This document shows positions 18,957 through 23,300 of a DNA stretch of 64,000 nt, one piece after another. The first letter of the stretch is position 1; the number at the start of each line of letters is the position of its first letter. Both the position numbers and the translations under genes were made by a program. The stretch is from a virus, in the IMG/VR virus record IMGVR_UViG_3300017613_000793, positions 5,195 to 69,194 of that record, one strand, 5' to 3'. Under the pieces are notes generated by a model. It ran no database searches, was not told where the DNA came from, and saw only the letters and a list, made by a program, of their open reading frames with translations.

Positions 18957-20190
18957 TCTCCTTATTTATTTTAGCTTTTGTGATGATGGTCTGTTTGGTA
19001 TCCTGGAACTCTTCAAACTTCTTAATGGTTGCCTTCATGGAAACCACCTGACCTTCAACCAGTCCTTGCCCACTAGAAGCAAACCAAACAAACACATGCT
19101 TCTCATCTGTGAATTTATAGAGATGAGTGATTCCATACTGAGTATCAAAGGTTGTATGGAATACCAATTTTAAATCACTGAGGTCCACCCTGTCCTTGAT
19201 TTCAGCCGGGTAGTATTCAATGGTCTGAGTCTTTTCTGCCCTCTGCTTTTTTTCCTCTATATAACCCATAGCTTTTTTGTAAGCTTCAATCATGTACCCT
19301 GCTTGTCCAACGTGGTAAGAAGGGACGGTTCCGGCTCTTGCAATATTGCGGAGAGTGAACTTAAACTCATTGTCCCAAGCTTCCTCATCAGCAATTTCTT
19401 TTGCCCACTGGATTGCTTCTTGTGCTAAGTCTGCATCTTCCTGGTCTATGATGAAATGTTCATAATGCTTTTTAGCTGATGGTGTCTTTGCGTGCATCCA
19501 ATTGAGTGCATCAACTGCAGTGGCAATACCTAAATCCTGGCTTGCCTTAGCTTTAGAAATGAATCCCTCAGCCTTAGTGATGGTTGCCACTCTGGTTAAA
19601 TAATCTCCCAAATAAAACTCACCAATTTCTTCTTGGCTCCCACGGCCTAAATCCCAATCCTCTTCATTTATGCCTTCCAAGTCTTCCATGATTGCCCAAT
19701 ACCGTGCCAGCTTTTCAGGTGACACATGCCCAGTAAAATCTTTAACACAACTGGAACCAACCTGTCTCCAAGTTCCAAGCATGCTGTGCTGTACAAGGTA
19801 AGCTTTCCGTCTTTTACGATTGCTCAAGCAGTGCTCACACAGATGACTGTTGCCGTTGTCTTTAAGATAAAAGGAAGGGATAGTTGCATTCTTGGAAACC
19901 TTTTTAATCAGAAGTCCAAACTCTTCAGAGAACTCAAACCGTGCTACAAAAGTCCAGCCTGAAATTACAGGTGACTCACCTTCCACGTCAATGGTAACAT
20001 ACGGAACTTCTATAGTTGCCAATCCATGCTTCCAAGTTTTAATCCAAGGTTTAGACACGGTGACTTTGATTTCAGCCACGCCTATCTTGACCGCTCTGTT
20101 CTGAAGCTTCTTGATGGATTTAAGAAACCCCTTCAAACTAACTTCAGGAATTTGAAATTGATTGAGGTTGATGTCTTGGATGCTACTCAT
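18943..20190 (-). CDS. Phage protein with zinc motif and C-terminal OB-like fold
   Basis: CEHC...R.R, QVGSSC.KDF, C-terminal YG.T..YKF.D...FVWFAS. Confidence 0.75.
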   Translation of the reverse strand: MSSIQDINLNQFQIPEVSLKGFLKSIKKLQNRAVKIGVAEIKVTVSKPWIKTWKHGLATIEVPYVTIDVEGESPVISGWTFVARFEFSEEFGLLIKKVSKNATIPSFYLKDNGNSHLCEHCLSNRKRRKAYLVQHSMLGTWRQVGSSCVKDFTGHVSPEKLARYWAIMEDLEGINEEDWDLGRGSQEEIGEFYLGDYLTRVATITKAEGFISKAKASQDLGIATAVDALNWMHAKTPSAKKHYEHFIIDQEDADLAQEAIQWAKEIADEEAWDNEFKFTLRNIARAGTVPSYHVGQAGYMIEAYKKAMGYIEEKKQRAEKTQTIEYYPAEIKDRVDLSDLKLVFHTTFDTQYGITHLYKFTDEKHVFVWFASSGQGLVEGQVVSMKATIKKFEEFQDTKQTIITKAKINKEIVNE

Positions 20191-20363
20191 ATCTGCACCT
20201 TTATTTCTACATAGACTTGGTGCATATCATTGTAATGGGTACAGAAAGCCTTGAGTCCTTTTGCCCGGTGTGCATCTAACATGTCTTGAGCAAAGTGATT
20301 ATCATTTGTTTCATAAACATACCGACATTCTACCCCGGCATACCATTTGTTTTCTCTCTTCAT
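20187..20363 (-). CDS. Small hypothetical protein (58 aa, not in the ORF track)
   Basis: RBS AGGAG; MKRENKWYAG...; ATGA overlaps at both ends. Confidence 0.65.
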   Translation of the reverse strand: MKRENKWYAGVECRYVYETNDNHFAQDMLDAHRAKGLKAFCTHYNDMHQVYVEIKVQI

Positions 20364-20836
20364 TTTTTGTCTCCTATATTATATTCTTTCCAAGTCTTGT
20401 CCCAAACTTCCTGGAGAAGTCTACAATTATTCCTAAGTGACTTGCTTCTGGAAAGGACAACTCTTCTGACACTACCTCTTCTCTCTTCCATACCAAGAGT
20501 CCAACCACTGGGTGAAGTCCAGGAACCAGGAAGTAGAGCCTTGAGTGAACTGTCAGTAGTACATTTCCAACTCATGGTCTCAGTCTTGGAAACAACTCTC
20601 TCAAGTCTAACACTCTTCCAAGCCCAAGGTCTGAGTGCAAGAGCAACAAGAGCACTGGAGAGATTCATATCAGTCAGCTTCAGTTCCCAAGTTCTGTTGT
20701 TCCATTCTTCCAGTTCCTGCTCACTACTCTTCTTAGGAAGAGCACTCATTTTGGCTTGGCTCTTCATCCATCTCTTCAGTTCCTTGCTAGGCTTGCTGAG
20801 ACTTTTCTTACTCATCATCCTTGCTTGCTTATTCAT
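20360..20836 (-). CDS. Hypothetical basic Ser/Trp/Lys-rich protein in compositionally odd DNA
   Basis: RBS GAGGT and ATGA coupling to the next gene; no Phe or His residues. Confidence 0.5.
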   Translation of the reverse strand: MNKQARMMSKKSLSKPSKELKRWMKSQAKMSALPKKSSEQELEEWNNRTWELKLTDMNLSSALVALALRPWAWKSVRLERVVSKTETMSWKCTTDSSLKALLPGSWTSPSGWTLGMEERRGSVRRVVLSRSKSLRNNCRLLQEVWDKTWKEYNIGDKK

Positions 20837-20900
20837 AATTTACCTCTACTTATAATACGACTCAACAGGGTATTTTATTCAATATTGCCAAAATAAAAAT

Positions 20901-20971
20901 AGGTTAGGAATGCCGGAGACCTTGAGCGGTCTGGTTAGAAACATACTTTTTATTTGTGGCATTCCCAACCT
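20901..20971 (-). terminator. Terminal 14-bp stem of the ncRNA cassette followed by a U-rich tract
   Basis: AGGUUGGGAAUGCC/GGCAUUCCUAACCU enclosing hairpin AGACC-GCUCAA-GGUCU, then AUUUUUAUUUU. Confidence 0.55.
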
Positions 20972-21015
20972 TTAAAAAAATATTTATAGGAGAAAATCAG
21001 AAAGCTTAAATATAT

Positions 21016-21097
21016 TGCAGGGAGTGATGGGATTGGATACCCACAACCTTCCGGGTCTGATGCCGGATGCTCTACTAGCATTTGAGCTACACTCCCT
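21016..21097 (-). ncRNA. Aberrant tRNA-like RNA (8-nt anticodon loop, 8-nt T-loop)
   Basis: Acceptor GGGAGUG/CACUCCC, D-stem GCUC/GAGC, anticodon stem UCCGG/CCGGA with loop CAUCAGAC, T-stem GUGGG/CCCAU with loop UAUCCAAU; no encoded CCA. Confidence 0.75.
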
Positions 21098-21156
21098 AAT
21101 CAGCACAAGGTCTTGTCTCATAAGACTCACCTGCACTGTCCATGGCTTGTAAAAAT

Positions 21157-21190
21157 GTGAGGAAGAGCCGGAGGTGGAACCCTTCCCCAC
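21157..21190 (-). ncRNA. Hairpin presenting an anti-Shine-Dalgarno loop
   Basis: GUGGGGAAGGGUU/GGCUCUUCCUCAC stem (several G-U pairs) with loop CCACCUCC. Confidence 0.6.
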
Positions 21191-21236
21191 GGAGACAAAA
21201 AAATGATTAACAAATTTTTTAAATTAAAATTACGGT

Positions 21237-21309
21237 CCGGGTGTCTTGCTCCCCAGTGAAGCAAGAATTTTTTCGTAGTGTTATACCCACCACCTGGATG
21301 TTCACCCGG
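21237..21309 (-). ncRNA. Small three-way-junction RNA
   Basis: CCGGGUG/CACCCGG closing stem, hairpins GUGGUG/CACUAC and UCUUGCU/AGCAAGA. Confidence 0.55.
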
Positions 21310-21349
21310 CAAAAATTTATCAAAGGAGTTTACTATGCAAAATTATATT

Positions 21350-21765
21350 GACACTGTGAGACTTGGACAGACAGTTGAACATTCAGTATTCAAGTCGGCT
21401 ACTCGGTGACAACGAACTTCACAGCCACTCTATGGCTCCATCCATTGGGCTTGGATAATGACTCCAGCCTTACCATACCTAGTTTCAACTTTTTGTAACC
21501 GGGACCACCCGGACCTTGCTCACTCACCACAGGAATGCCCTAGACAACTTGTTCCAGAACAAACGGAGTATGTGTATCTTGTAGACAATCCAAGTATTTT
21601 CGTGTGAGAAGCCGTGGCTCCAATTCATGATATGGCCTTCTCATGGTCTTGTGGGTTGCTTACGCTGAAGCTTCATAGCAGTGACCCCTCACCACGTCTG
21701 CTTCCCCAACGTTCTTGTATCAGTCACAGCACCTCAGCTATGACCCTCACACGTCTCACAGCATC
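21350..21765 (-). ncRNA. Large (416 nt) structured non-coding RNA of unknown class
   Basis: 13-bp terminal helix GAUGCUGUGAGAC/GUCUCACAGUGUC, numerous internal hairpins, G-U pairs favouring the minus strand, no minus-strand ORF, promoter upstream. Confidence 0.72.
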
Positions 21766-21813
21766 CAAACAAAGACAAGGTATTAAGCCCTGTCTGTGTT
21801 ATCTACTTATTAA

Positions 21814-21826
21814 GTTGTCAAAGAAC
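21814..21826 (-). promoter_or_regulatory. boxA-like antitermination element
   Basis: GTTCTTTGACAAC about 25 nt after the predicted start site; resembles rRNA-leader boxA (GYTCTTTRANAA). Confidence 0.6.
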
Positions 21827-21855
21827 TCAGTCACTCAATCCTGGTGACCATTATC

Positions 21856-21885
21856 AGTTTACCAAAAAACTATTTCTCTTGTCAA
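21856..21885 (-). promoter_or_regulatory. Promoter of the ncRNA cassette
   Basis: TTGACA(21885-21880)-18-TAAACT(21861-21856), preceded by TGG; embedded in the 3' end of the sigma gene. Confidence 0.75.
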
Positions 21886-22659
21886 GCACTTTTTTATAAA
21901 AGAACTAAATCTAAATCTATCTGTTGATTCTCTATTAATAGTAATGTCCCAATTCTTTTTTGGAACCATCTTCTTTACTTTCTTATAACACTTACTCTGA
22001 CTCCAATAATGAACTTCAACCTCTTCCATTTTAATTGATTCAGGTTCAAGTTCAGGTTCAACCCATTCTTCTTTTGGCCTTAATGTAATTTCCTTTTTAT
22101 AACAGTTGTTTTGATTCCAATAATGAACCTCAACTTGTTCCATGGTCTCATCTAAATCCTGTGAAGGTTTTGATTTTGGTACAAACTTGTCTCTGATGTT
22201 TCGTATTATCTGAGCAGTCCATCGTTGACTATACCCTAAAACTTTTCCAGCTTCCTCTGTGGACATACCATCAAACACAACCAACTGAACTAAACGCCTT
22301 TGCTTTGGTGTCAACTTGTCTAACAAGTTTTGTTTCTGTTGGAACAATTGTTTAAACTCAAATATATCCATAGGAGTTTTTTTATCTTGCGTATCTTTAA
22401 AAAATGCTTTCTCATGGTCCAACAATCTTCTTTGTTGGTATTTCCATCTAATATGGTCCACCACTGCCCGGTCTGCAATTGTGTAAGCATAAGTTTCAAG
22501 AGTGCTCCTACCCTCAAACTTATCCAACGCCTCAACCAATCTCACATATGCATCAGATATAACATCTTCAATAACTTGGTGTGGTCTACCTGCAAGTTTA
22601 CCATAAATATGCCCACGCATTTTCTGTAGAACCTTATCTGAAATTTCAAACATACTCAT
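21859..22659 (-). CDS. sigma-70 family (ECF-like) RNA polymerase sigma factor with C-terminal duplicated motif
   Basis: Region 2 EDVISDAYVRL...KFEGRSTLETYAYTIA...VDH.R; region 4 LTPKQRRLV.L....GMSTEEAGKVLG. Confidence 0.85.
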   Translation of the reverse strand: MSMFEISDKVLQKMRGHIYGKLAGRPHQVIEDVISDAYVRLVEALDKFEGRSTLETYAYTIADRAVVDHIRWKYQQRRLLDHEKAFFKDTQDKKTPMDIFEFKQLFQQKQNLLDKLTPKQRRLVQLVVFDGMSTEEAGKVLGYSQRWTAQIIRNIRDKFVPKSKPSQDLDETMEQVEVHYWNQNNCYKKEITLRPKEEWVEPELEPESIKMEEVEVHYWSQSKCYKKVKKMVPKKNWDITINRESTDRFRFSSFIKKCLTREIVFW

Positions 22660-22674
22660 GCCTTGAAATTTTTT

Positions 22675-22750
22675 TGGAGCGTCCTGTCAGATTTGAACTG
22701 ACACCCTCAGGTTGGAAGCCTGGAATGCTACCGTTAAACACCAAGGACGC
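22675..22750 (-). tRNA. tRNA-Gly(TCC)
   Basis: Cloverleaf, anticodon loop CTTCCAA, encoded CCA. Confidence 0.9.
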
Positions 22751-22751
22751 T

Positions 22752-22825
22752 TGGCACTGACTGTGGGATTTGAACCCCTTCTCCCGGTAGACAGCCGGGT
22801 GTGTTACCATTACACTACAGCCAGT
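22752..22825 (-). tRNA. tRNA-Asp(GTC), non-canonical
   Basis: Anticodon loop CTGTCTA; extended acceptor helix, short T-stem, G discriminator plus CCA. Confidence 0.7.
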
Positions 22826-22828
22826 GTT

Positions 22829-22904
22829 TGGCAGGTCCGTCTGGATTTGAACCAGAGGCCACGGTTTTGGAGACCGTGATGTTAAGCCACTACACCACAG
22901 ACCT
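22829..22904 (-). tRNA. tRNA-Trp(CCA)
   Basis: Cloverleaf, loop CTCCAAA, G73 plus CCA. Confidence 0.9.
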
Positions 22905-22907
22905 GTG

Positions 22908-22980
22908 CGGAGCATAGGGGAATTGAACCCACTAATACAAGGTTGAAAGCCTTGTGTCCTAACCATTAGACTAATGCTCC
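22908..22980 (-). tRNA. tRNA-Glu(TTC)
   Basis: Cloverleaf, loop CTTTCAA; bulged T-stem; no encoded CCA. Confidence 0.8.
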
Positions 22981-22981
22981 A

Positions 22982-23058
22982 TGGTGGAGACGGTGGGACT
23001 TGAACCCACAACTTCCTGCTTGCAAAGCAGGTGCTCTCCCAAATTGAGCTACATCCCC
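22982..23058 (-). tRNA. tRNA-Ala(TGC)
   Basis: Cloverleaf, loop TTTGCAA, G3:U70 pair, encoded CCA. Confidence 0.93.
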
Positions 23059-23069
23059 AAAAATATTAT

Positions 23070-23144
23070 TGGAGGGTTGGAGTGGATTTGAACCACAATC
23101 TTCCGAGTTCACAGCCCGGTGCTCTACCTTTGAACTACCAACCC
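23070..23144 (-). tRNA. tRNA with GTG anticodon (His-like, lacks G-1:C73)
   Basis: Loop CTGTGAA; acceptor GGGTTGG/CCAACCC, U discriminator plus CCA. Confidence 0.8.
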
Positions 23145-23146
23145 AT

Positions 23147-23222
23147 TGGTGGGAAAGACAAGACTTGAACTTGCAACCCCTGGCTCCCAAAGCCAGTGCT
23201 CTACCAATTGAGCCACTTTCCC
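23147..23222 (-). tRNA. tRNA-Pro(TGG)
   Basis: Loop TTTGGGA; acceptor GGGAAAG/CTTTCCC, A73 plus CCA. Confidence 0.88.
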
Positions 23223-23225
23223 TGT

Positions 23226-23300
23226 TGGCTGTGGTGGATAGATTTGAACTATCAACACCCTGTTTAACAGACAGGTGCTCTACCATTGAGCTACACCACA
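23226..23300 (-). tRNA. tRNA-Asn(GTT)
   Basis: Loop CTGTTAA, G73 plus CCA. Confidence 0.92.

What the first reader, a model, noticed from the sequence alone, without database searches (positions are those of the whole stretch)
20890..21885. Dedicated phage non-coding RNA operon: promoter, boxA, large structured RNA, small RNAs and a tRNA mimic
Seen: about 950 bp with no credible protein gene in an otherwise densely coding genome. It opens with TTGACA-18-TAAACT and a boxA-like motif. Six separately folding modules follow (416-nt RNA, three-way junction, anti-SD hairpin, hairpin at 21101-21138, tRNA-like fold, terminal stem plus U-tract), mostly separated by AU-rich linkers, with G-U pairs consistently favouring the minus strand. 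Known: phages carry large ncRNAs such as GOLLD and ROOL near tRNA clusters. Inference: a polycistronic, processed RNA precursor organised like an rRNA operon, a combination I do not recognise as described.
Basis: partly seen in the sequence, partly recalled or inferred. Interest (0 to 1): 0.9.

Follow-up and report, generated by a model that had tools for sequence, protein, structure and literature searches.

The report
Orphan phage non-coding RNA cassette
An uncultured marine phage has about 1 kb without genes, just after its tRNA genes, that looks like a string of folded RNAs including a tRNA look-alike; phages T4 and T5 have similar arrangements, and no related copy was found to test whether this one matters.

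Summary
The gene-free stretch is real. No minus-strand frame shows a coding signal from 21860 to 20840. No protein family matches in six frames. 0 of 8 local ORFs are in the gene collection.

The described folds all appear in the minimum-energy structure. GC-rich modules (45-65% GC) alternate with 17-18% GC linkers. The "tRNA mimic" scores 44.2 bits on Rfam tRNA but has 8-nt anticodon and T loops and no encoded CCA.

The promoter's -35 hexamer recurs at the same place in one relative, L015.

Three supports fail:
- The boxA match is at chance level (33 found, 35.7 expected).
- The G-U strand bias also occurs in a coding control.
- The middle of the "416-nt RNA" is not unusually stable.

No Rfam family other than tRNA matches. 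I found no homologue by any route. L015, the only relative with readable upstream DNA, lacks the region.

The layout is not new. T4 has a tRNA cluster followed by rnaD and rnaC, and T5 has rnaX.

Verdict: a plausible lineage-specific non-coding RNA cassette, unproven. The scan has reported similar large phage RNAs on other DNA.

The parts
22675..23300 (-). Array of 8 tRNA genes (Asn, Pro, His, Ala, Glu, Trp, Asp, Gly), upstream context
   Evidence: Rfam tRNA 35.8-72.8 bits; ARAGORN
21859..22659 (-). ECF-like sigma factor gene (266 aa). It starts 15 nt after the last tRNA, and its last codons contain the promoter.
   Evidence: Pfam Sigma70_r2, Sigma70_r4 and Sigma70_ECF; phrog_1740
21856..21885 (-). 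Sigma-70-type promoter TTGACA-18-TAAACT with extended -10 TG
   Evidence: 10 of 12 positions. The -35 hexamer and the coding context around it recur at the 3' end of the sigma gene of relative L015.
21829..21849 (-). 5' leader hairpin
   Evidence: MFE, pair probability 0.74-0.82. The whole 85-nt leader is not exceptional (z -1.7).
21773..21795 (-). 8-bp hairpin followed by a U-rich run, terminator-like (T1)
   Evidence: pair probability 0.98
21350..21765 (-). 416-nt GC-richer domain (49% GC), closed by an 11-bp long-range helix, with two sub-domains
   Evidence: Closing helix probability 0.99. z -2.4 on minus and -1.1 on plus. Local 150-nt windows through the middle score about 0.
21207..21323 (-). 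Three-way junction module: an AU stem, a 7-bp GC stem and two hairpins
   Evidence: z -4.0 on minus (0 of 300 shuffles) and -1.2 on plus; pair probabilities 0.98-0.99
21157..21190 (-). 13-bp hairpin with a C-rich 8-nt loop, followed by AUUUUU; terminator-like (T2)
   Evidence: z -3.2 on minus and -0.8 on plus
21101..21138 (-). Bulged hairpin
   Evidence: z -2.8
21019..21096 (-). tRNA-shaped element. All four stems pair. The anticodon loop and the T loop each have 8 nt, the D loop lacks GG, and no CCA is encoded.
   Evidence: Rfam tRNA 44.2 bits, E 8e-8. Missed by the whole-window gathering scan and by ARAGORN even at lowered thresholds. Compared with the 8 phage tRNAs.
20888..20971 (-). 14-bp terminal stem with an inner hairpin, then a U-tract: the likely end of the RNA unit (T3)
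   Evidence: Inverted repeat I2, 93% complementary; pair probability 0.99; z -5.8
20360..20836 (-). Downstream neighbour: 158-aa W/R-rich ORF of unknown function with atypical codon usage. It is absent from relative L015, as is the RNA stretch.
   Evidence: Codon score 0.08 against a training minimum of 0.165. Homologues at 49, 44, 32 and 37% identity. No Pfam or PHROG match. AF2 pLDDT 77.5, with no fold match.

Best explanation
The stretch 21850-20890 (minus strand) is a lineage-specific cassette of non-coding RNAs at the tail of the phage's tRNA-sigma transcription unit.

Inferred transcription. RNA polymerase starts at the sigma-70-type promoter embedded in the last codons of the sigma gene, and perhaps also reads through from the tRNA promoter upstream. 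It then makes a long untranslated RNA that ends at the strong stem plus U-tract at 20971-20888.

Inferred content. GC-rich folded modules separated by 17-18% GC linkers give a 416-nt domain, a three-way junction, two hairpins and a tRNA-shaped element. I take the tRNA-shaped element to be a structural tRNA mimic, not a decoder.

Inferred processing. By analogy with T4 (tRNA cluster plus stable RNAs rnaD and rnaC) and T5 (rnaX plus tRNA-Arg), I think the precursor is cut at the tRNA-shaped element and in the AU-rich linkers by host tRNA-processing and RNase E-type enzymes into stable pieces. Their role would be in host takeover or counter-defence, and it is unknown.

What is shown: the absence of genes, the promoter motif and its recurrence in one relative, the folds and their statistics, and the tRNA-model score. 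What is inferred: transcription, processing and function.
For: - No coding signal in any minus-strand frame. No family hit in six frames. 0 of 8 local ORFs were called as genes in the collection.
- This is the largest non-coding-like stretch in a 64-kb window where every passing ORF lies on the minus strand.
- The promoter scores 10 of 12 with a TG. The same -35 hexamer sits in the homologous C-terminal codons of the sigma gene of L015.
- Modules are 45-65% GC and linkers 17-18% GC. The phage's tRNA array is similarly GC-rich, 45-52%.
- After dinucleotide control the minus strand folds better than the plus strand for the three-way junction (-4.0 vs -1.2), the 13-bp hairpin (-3.2 vs -0.8) and the 416-nt domain (-2.4 vs -1.1).
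- The cloverleaf scores 44.2 bits against a gathering score of 29, inside the range of the phage's own tRNAs (35.8-72.8), with every stem position paired.
- Precedents are annotated in T4 and T5.
- No reverse transcriptase is present in the record, which removes retron, DGR and group II readings.
Against: - There is no homologue of any module, so no covariation test. blastn against 50,697 phage records found none. nhmmer against 30 fetched loci found none. Three loop-pattern scans of IMG/VR gave 0 true hits. A search for mis-called ORFs in one frame found none.
- L015, the only relative whose upstream DNA could be read (1 of 1), runs from the same promoter straight into the 415-aa gene with no RNA stretch.
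- No Rfam family other than tRNA matches at E <= 10.
- The centre of the 416-nt domain is no more stable than shuffles.
- Module borders were set after folding.
- boxA is at chance level, and the G-U strand bias is compositional.
- There are no expression data.
Confidence: 0.45

Rival explanations
1. Mostly non-functional spacer. On this reading the stretch is a fast-evolving, recently acquired or decaying intergenic region that holds a dead tRNA gene, a few terminators and chance hairpins. The large "ornate RNA" would be an over-reading of a minimum-energy fold.
For: The region is absent from the one relative with readable upstream DNA. No homologue was found anywhere. The middle of the 416-nt domain has z about 0. 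The whole 1.67 kb, including the 158-aa ORF, is compositionally atypical, as expected of foreign DNA. The loops of the cloverleaf are damaged, and ARAGORN rejects it.
Against: 1 kb of junk is unusual in a window with only four other gaps of 200 nt or more, one of which is the tRNA array. All stem positions of the cloverleaf pair while the changes sit in the loops. The sharp alternation of GC-rich and AU-rich segments and z-scores of -4 to -5.8 for three modules are not expected of decayed DNA. All six frames carry stop codons at random density, with no remnant of a gene.
Confidence: 0.25
2. Cis-acting leader. On this reading the stretch is a long 5' untranslated region carrying three successive terminator-like hairpins (T1 21795-21773, T2 21190-21157, T3 20971-20888). 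These would gate transcription from the conserved promoter into the 158-aa, 58-aa and 415-aa genes. AU-rich linkers could also pair with the ribosome-binding site of the 58-aa gene.
For: In L015 the same promoter directly drives the 415-aa gene, so here the stretch lies between a promoter and the genes it drives in L015. Two terminator-like sites were flagged by the scan, and a third comes from the fold. 21202-21191 is perfectly complementary over 12 nt to the ribosome-binding site of the 58-aa gene (20374-20363), and 20996-20985 matches the same site at 11 of 12.
Against: 5 terminator-like sites in 3.2 kb against 2.9 +/- 1.8 expected is a weak signal. A second promoter-like site (20405-20378, 10 of 12) lies just before the 58-aa gene. 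Complementarities of 13-17 nt to unrelated parts of the window occur by chance. A 1-kb leader containing a cloverleaf is not needed for attenuation.
Confidence: 0.2
3. Unrecognised small protein genes, or a DNA-level element such as a replication origin or packaging site.
For: A 24-aa plus-strand ORF at 21335 has a strong Shine-Dalgarno site at good spacing. Distant phages carry ORF-free gaps 2-3 kb upstream of their 415-aa homologue.
Against: There is no coding signal or family hit. There are no iterons or repeat families here. The gaps in the distant phages are rich in visible short repeats, have z about 0 and share no sequence with this stretch. The strand asymmetry of z-scores for two modules argues for RNA rather than DNA structure.
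Confidence: 0.07

Closest known systems
Phage T5 rnaX (RNAX), annotated as "stable RNA with unknown functions", NC_005859 40848-41566
   Same: It is a promoter-driven, gene-free stretch of 0.7 kb in the tRNA region, on the strand of its neighbouring genes. It contains a tRNA-shaped fold that Rfam's tRNA model scores at 38.3 bits. It is of similar size and its function is unknown.
   Different: No sequence similarity: blastn of this stretch against the phage collection found nothing, and that collection holds 525 records matching rnaX. A covariance model of the conserved 5' domain of RNAX (7 sequences) scores 3.6 bits, E 1.4, here. In T5 the tRNA-like fold has a canonical T loop and lies near the 5' end, and a real tRNA follows. 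Here the loops are aberrant, the fold lies near the 3' end and a terminator follows.
Phage T4 tRNA cluster with the stable RNAs rnaD (species 2) and rnaC (species 1), NC_000866 70908-72530
   Same: The order is the same: a tRNA array, then a protein gene inside the RNA cluster (segB in T4, a sigma factor here), then small stable non-coding RNAs, all on one strand.
   Different: The T4 RNAs are 119 and 139 nt, whereas this stretch is about 960 nt with a 416-nt domain. No sequence match was found. That the T4 RNAs are cut from the tRNA precursor is my recollection and comes from no call.
GOLLD (RF01998) and ROOL (RF03087), large ornate RNAs of phages and prophages
   Same: They are large structured RNAs of unknown function. 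I recall that they are often found in phages near tRNA genes. The papers appeared in a search listing only.
   Different: Neither family matches at E <= 10 in the sensitive scan of 20700-22000. There is no evidence here of the deep conservation that defines those families.
Transfer RNA (RF00005)
   Same: The element is a cloverleaf with four paired stems and scores 44.2 bits against a gathering score of 29. Among the phage's own tRNAs it is closest to tRNA-Ala(UGC) in the alignment.
   Different: The anticodon loop has 8 nt, the T loop has 8 nt without the usual U-U-C run, and the D loop lacks GG. No CCA is encoded, whereas 7 of the 8 array tRNAs encode it. ARAGORN does not call it.

Membership tests
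Any Rfam 15 family (including GOLLD, ROOL, group I/II introns, tmRNA, RNase P, ribozymes) | Covariance-model match at or near the family's gathering score | tested here: not met
   The whole-window gathering scan found only the 8 tRNAs. In the E <= 10 scan of 20700-22000, every family other than tRNA scored at most 20.6 bits with E >= 1.1. The scan of 20100-21000 had nothing below E 1.7.
tRNA (RF00005) | Cloverleaf scoring above the gathering score | tested here: met
   44.2 bits against 29, E 8e-8, model positions 1-71
tRNA (RF00005) | 7-nt anticodon loop, canonical T loop and D-loop GG; recognised by a tRNA gene finder | tested here: not met
   The cmscan alignment shows one inserted base in the anticodon loop and one in the T loop. 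ARAGORN finds nothing at default or lowered thresholds.
tRNA (RF00005) | Encoded 3' CCA, as in this phage's own tRNAs | tested here: not met
   7 of the 8 array tRNAs end in CCA in alignment A3; the element does not.
T5-type RNAX | Sequence similarity to rnaX of T5-like phages | tested here: not met
   blastn (word 11) of 20800-22000 against the phage collection found no match. T5 rnaX finds 525 records in that collection.
T5-type RNAX | Conserved 5' domain (T5 nt 20-175) with its structure | tested here: not met
   Model R1 with filters off scored 3.6 bits, E 1.4, at the tRNA-like element and 1.7 bits at the three-way junction. The genuine tRNAs scored higher, up to 18.6 bits. Only this domain of RNAX was modelled.
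T5-type RNAX | Promoter-driven, ORF-free, in the tRNA region, holds a tRNA-shaped fold | tested here: met
   This is a resemblance in layout, not homology.
rrn/lambda-type boxA antitermination site | boxA motif better than chance, downstream of the promoter | tested here: not met
   The site at 21827-21815 has 3 mismatches. 33 such matches occur in the window against 35.7 +/- 6.0 in 100 shuffles, and 66 of the 100 shuffles have at least 33. The consensus was recalled.
Intrinsic terminator | GC-rich stem followed by a U-tract | tested here: met
   21190-21157 and 21795-21773 were flagged. 20971-20901 has a 14-bp stem and a U-tract, but its long inner loop is outside the scan's rule.
Retron / DGR / group II intron RNA | Reverse transcriptase gene in the element or genome | tested here: not met
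   PF00078 has 0 matches in the 69-kb record, which is 75% complete.

The most novel reading that the evidence does not exclude
The 416-nt domain and the three-way junction could be founders of a new class of large phage RNA. On this reading they were acquired as one foreign cassette with the conserved W/R-rich 158-aa protein of unknown fold, and possibly work with it as an RNA-protein particle. The tRNA-shaped element would serve as the built-in processing or stabilising handle.
Probability: 0.15. Interest if true: 0.6.

Novelty: new member of a known kind. Interest (0 to 1): 0.35.

Why it matters
Large stable RNAs in phage tRNA regions (T4 rnaC and rnaD, T5 rnaX, GOLLD, ROOL) have, as far as I recall, no established function. 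Each independent example with a different architecture narrows what they might do.

This one would be useful because its parts are cleanly separated, it carries a tRNA mimic with intact stems and altered loops, and it sits behind a promoter found in at least one relative. It could therefore be tested by deletion or Northern blot if a related phage were cultured.

As it stands it is a single sequence with no comparative or expression support. Its value is as a lead, not a result.

Tried and rejected
HOMOLOGUE SEARCHES THAT FOUND NOTHING USABLE
- blastn of 20800-22000 against the phage collection: no match.
- tblastn of the sigma factor against the phage collection: no match.
- Single-protein scans of IMG/VR with the sigma factor and with the 415-aa protein: none.
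- Alignment A1 of the 415-aa protein family:
  - IMG/VR gave 13 loci at 30% identity or less.
  - JGI metagenomes gave 17 loci. Only L015 (46%) and L016 (58%) are close. L015 has 972 nt of upstream DNA, and L016 has none.
  - GTDB genomes gave 1 distant locus.
- nhmmer of the stretch against the 13 and then the 30 fetched loci: 0 hits, then 1 hit at E 4.7.
- Alignment A2 of the 158-aa family in IMG/VR: none.
- Loop-pattern scans of IMG/VR:
  - tRNA-like loops gave 34 stretches, about the chance number, and 0 of 34 had paired stems.
  - The three-way-junction pattern gave 0.
  - The hairpin pattern from the 416-nt domain gave 0.
- Search for mis-called ORFs of a homologous region, one frame of six, shorter proteins: 26 candidates, none at E <= 0.01.
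- The scan's earlier notes, by place and by sequence: no look-alike in other windows.

SEQUENCING RUNS
No RNA holder was listed. Three DNA runs of one study were laid as contigs. X1 and X2 gave short low-depth pieces identical to the window. X3's listed pieces lie only on the tRNA region. No piece spanned the stretch and no variants fell inside it. This says nothing about expression.

READINGS CONSIDERED AND DROPPED
- Recoded or decayed gene: stops in all six frames at about random density and no family hit.
- tmRNA: ARAGORN finds none.
- Retron, DGR or group II intron: no reverse transcriptase.
- Iteron origin: no repeat family.
- The ORF-free gaps of distant 111-kb phages (L005-L009) looked like a parallel. 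They are rich in short repeats, fold no better than shuffles and are unrelated in sequence.
- The 158-aa neighbour gave no fold match in PDB or BFVD. Its two large-protein hits are repeat proteins with unrelated Pfam families, which I take as spurious.

PAPERS
- bioRxiv 10.1101/2024.12.08.627333 and PMC5737381: search listing and the start of the abstract only.
- PMC2330249: four passages; it does not mention the stable RNAs.
- A search for "species 1 RNA" found no paper holding that phrase among the ten listed.
- Supplementary files were not requested.
Full report
CONTEXT
The window is part of a 69-kb IMG/VR virus record estimated at 75% complete. Low-depth identical pieces occur in DNA runs labelled marine sediment and seawater. 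Every ORF that passes a codon-usage test lies on the minus strand.

Read 5' to 3' on that strand, the neighbourhood runs as follows:
- a promoter-like site at 23396-23368;
- eight tRNA genes at 23300-22675;
- an ECF-like sigma factor gene at 22659-21859, starting 15 nt after the last tRNA;
- the finding, 21885-20890;
- a 158-aa ORF, a 58-aa ORF and a 415-aa gene of family phrog_2319.

THE ABSENCE OF GENES IS REAL
- ORFs inside the stretch are 77 aa or shorter.
- A codon log-odds model trained on 34 long genes of the window gives negative or near-zero scores in all three minus-strand frames from 21860 to 20840. The sigma gene scores 0.33 and the training genes 0.17-0.50.
- Stop codons of all three kinds interrupt all six frames at about the random density, so a recoded or lightly broken gene is unlikely.
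- Read through with X at the stops, the six frames give 0 Pfam families and one PHROG row at E 0.13.
- None of the 8 local ORFs I looked up is in the 15-billion-protein collection, while the 158-aa and 58-aa neighbours are.
- In the whole window, 20191-21858 is the longest stretch without a coding-scored ORF, followed by the tRNA array.

PROMOTER
TTGACA-18-TAAACT with an upstream TG is at 21885-21856. The scan as such is weak evidence, with 9 sites found against 5.6 +/- 2.4 expected.

The site gains weight from a relative. Contig L015 encodes a 415-aa homologue at 46% identity. Its sigma gene (E 3e-9 to ours) ends with homologous codons that contain the same TTGACA. A promoter inside the end of the sigma gene is therefore shared by both phages. 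That makes minus-strand transcription into the finding likely, though it is still an inference.

THE FOLDS
They are the 416-nt domain closed by an 11-bp helix (probability 0.99), the three-way junction, the 13-bp hairpin with a C-rich loop, the hairpin at 21138-21101, the cloverleaf, and a 14-bp terminal stem before a U-tract.

Z-scores against dinucleotide shuffles are given as minus strand / plus strand:

| Module | Minus | Plus |
|---|---|---|
| 416-nt domain | -2.4 | -1.1 |
| Three-way junction | -4.0 | -1.2 |
| 13-bp hairpin | -3.2 | -0.8 |
| Second hairpin | -2.8 | -1.9 |
| Cloverleaf | -4.0 | -2.9 |
| Terminal stem | -5.8 | -3.9 |
| 85-nt leader | -1.7 | -2.1 |

These borders were chosen after folding, which inflates z. 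An unbiased 150-nt sliding scan shows strong signals only at 20825-21049, 21200-21349 and 21650-21799, and values near 0 through the middle of the 416-nt domain. So the 3' half is a row of clearly non-random small folds, while the "large ornate RNA" is only modestly supported.

The composition pattern is striking. Modules are 45-65% GC and linkers 17-18% GC, in a genome of 40% GC.

- The boxA-like motif has three mismatches to the consensus as I recall it. Matches of that quality are as common in shuffled sequence: 33 found, 35.7 expected, and 66 of 100 shuffles reach 33.
- The excess of G-U pairs on the minus strand (42 against 31; -305 against -257 kcal/mol) is matched in a coding control of equal length (45 against 33; -258 against -218). 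It reflects the genome-wide G>C skew. What remains after composition control is the z-score asymmetry for three modules.

THE tRNA-SHAPED ELEMENT
Rfam's tRNA model gives 44.2 bits (E 8e-8) over its full length. That is within the 35.8-72.8 bits of the eight genuine tRNAs. Yet the element was dropped by the filters of the whole-window scan, and ARAGORN misses it at any threshold tried.

The alignment shows every stem position paired. It also shows one extra base in the anticodon loop, one extra base in the T loop, and a D loop without GG.

Aligned with the phage's tRNAs, the element is closest to tRNA-Ala(UGC). It lacks the encoded CCA that 7 of the 8 carry. If it descends from a tRNA-Ala-like gene, two acceptor pairs differ on both sides and the whole anticodon stem differs yet still pairs. 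That pattern fits selection for shape. Because it rests on one assumed ancestor, I treat it as suggestive. I read the element as a structural tRNA mimic rather than a decoder or a simple dead gene.

WHAT IT IS NOT
- No Rfam family other than tRNA comes near significance. That excludes GOLLD, ROOL, introns, tmRNA, RNase P RNA and the known small ribozymes at the sensitivity of those models.
- There is no reverse transcriptase in the record.
- There are no repeat families.

HOMOLOGUES: THE MISSING EVIDENCE
All routes open to me failed. They are listed under Tried and rejected and cover.

The one informative relative, L015, goes from the shared promoter straight into the 415-aa gene. The RNA stretch, the 158-aa ORF and the 58-aa ORF are all missing. 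So about 1.67 kb is lineage-specific, either gained here or lost there.

The 158-aa ORF has atypical codon usage but real homologues (49, 44, 32 and 37% identity). This hints that the whole block was acquired from elsewhere.

COMPARISON WITH WHAT IS KNOWN
A lead from earlier notes of this scan pointed to rnaX of T5.
- The T5 record annotates a promoter, then a 719-nt "stable RNA with unknown functions", then tRNA-Arg.
- Rfam's tRNA model finds a 38.3-bit tRNA-like fold inside that RNA.
- rnaX has 525 matching records in the phage collection, none of which matches our stretch.
- A covariance model of its conserved 5' domain, built from 7 sequences, scores 3.6 bits here and less than on the genuine tRNAs.

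So this is not a member of RNAX, but it has the same layout. The T4 record shows the same order as here: a tRNA array, a protein gene, then the small stable RNAs rnaD and rnaC. The combination is therefore a known kind, and this is an unrelated new example.

MECHANISM, WITH ODDS
- Processed non-coding cassette (0.45). I favour this reading. The shared promoter is followed by a long untranslated RNA that ends at 20971-20888. GC-rich folds are released at AU-rich linkers, and the tRNA mimic serves as a handle for tRNA-processing enzymes. The function is unknown.
- Mostly non-functional spacer with a dead tRNA gene (0.25).
- Cis-acting leader with serial terminators (0.20). A 12-nt perfect and an 11-of-12 complementarity to the ribosome-binding site of the 58-aa gene would fit this reading. 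Complementarities of 13-17 nt to unrelated parts of the window also occur by chance.
- Small peptides or a DNA-level element (0.07).

VERDICT
The elaborate interpretation is only partly supported. The kind is already known, and nothing here can yet show function. Interest is moderate to low until homologues or transcripts are found.

Noticed in passing
window 21859-22180 (-): The sigma factor carries about 100 extra C-terminal residues after region 4. They include two copies of a roughly 40-aa repeat with a shared H-Y-W...C-Y-K-K motif. The sigma factor of relative L015 is 184 aa, shorter by about that much.
   Followed up: partly
window 20360-20836 (-): The 158-aa W/R-rich ORF has atypical codon usage and a small family of homologues (invariant R-P-W-x-W and R-R motifs). 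It has no Pfam or PHROG match. The AF2 model has pLDDT 77.5 and finds no fold match in PDB or BFVD.
   Followed up: partly
window 21191-21202 and 20985-20996 versus 20363-20378 (-): Two AU-rich linkers are complementary to the ribosome-binding site of the 58-aa gene, one at 12 of 12 positions and one at 11 of 12. This could be chance in low-complexity sequence.
   Followed up: partly
window 21323-21409 (+): A 24-aa plus-strand ORF starts at 21335, six bases after a strong Shine-Dalgarno motif. It lies antisense to the junction between the 416-nt domain and the next linker.
   Followed up: no
L007:3212-4173, L008:3483-4173, L006:3101-3546, L005:2941-3856, L009:2390-3096: Distant 51-112-kb phages have ORF-free gaps of 450-960 nt lying 2-3 kb upstream of their 415-aa homologue. 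The gaps are GC-rich (43-51%). The L007 gap has many visible copies of a short motif and folds no better than shuffles (z about 0). It looks like an iteron or operator array rather than an RNA.
   Followed up: partly
L068:162-235, L074:634-706 and rows H34-H69: In GenBank records of T5-like phages, the tRNA-shaped fold inside rnaX is variously annotated as tRNA-Sec, tRNA-Ser or tRNA-OTHER, or the region is annotated as hypothetical proteins.
   Followed up: no
window 22659-22675 (-): The sigma gene starts 15 nt after the last tRNA of the array. The sigma mRNA is therefore probably cut out of a tRNA precursor.
   Followed up: no
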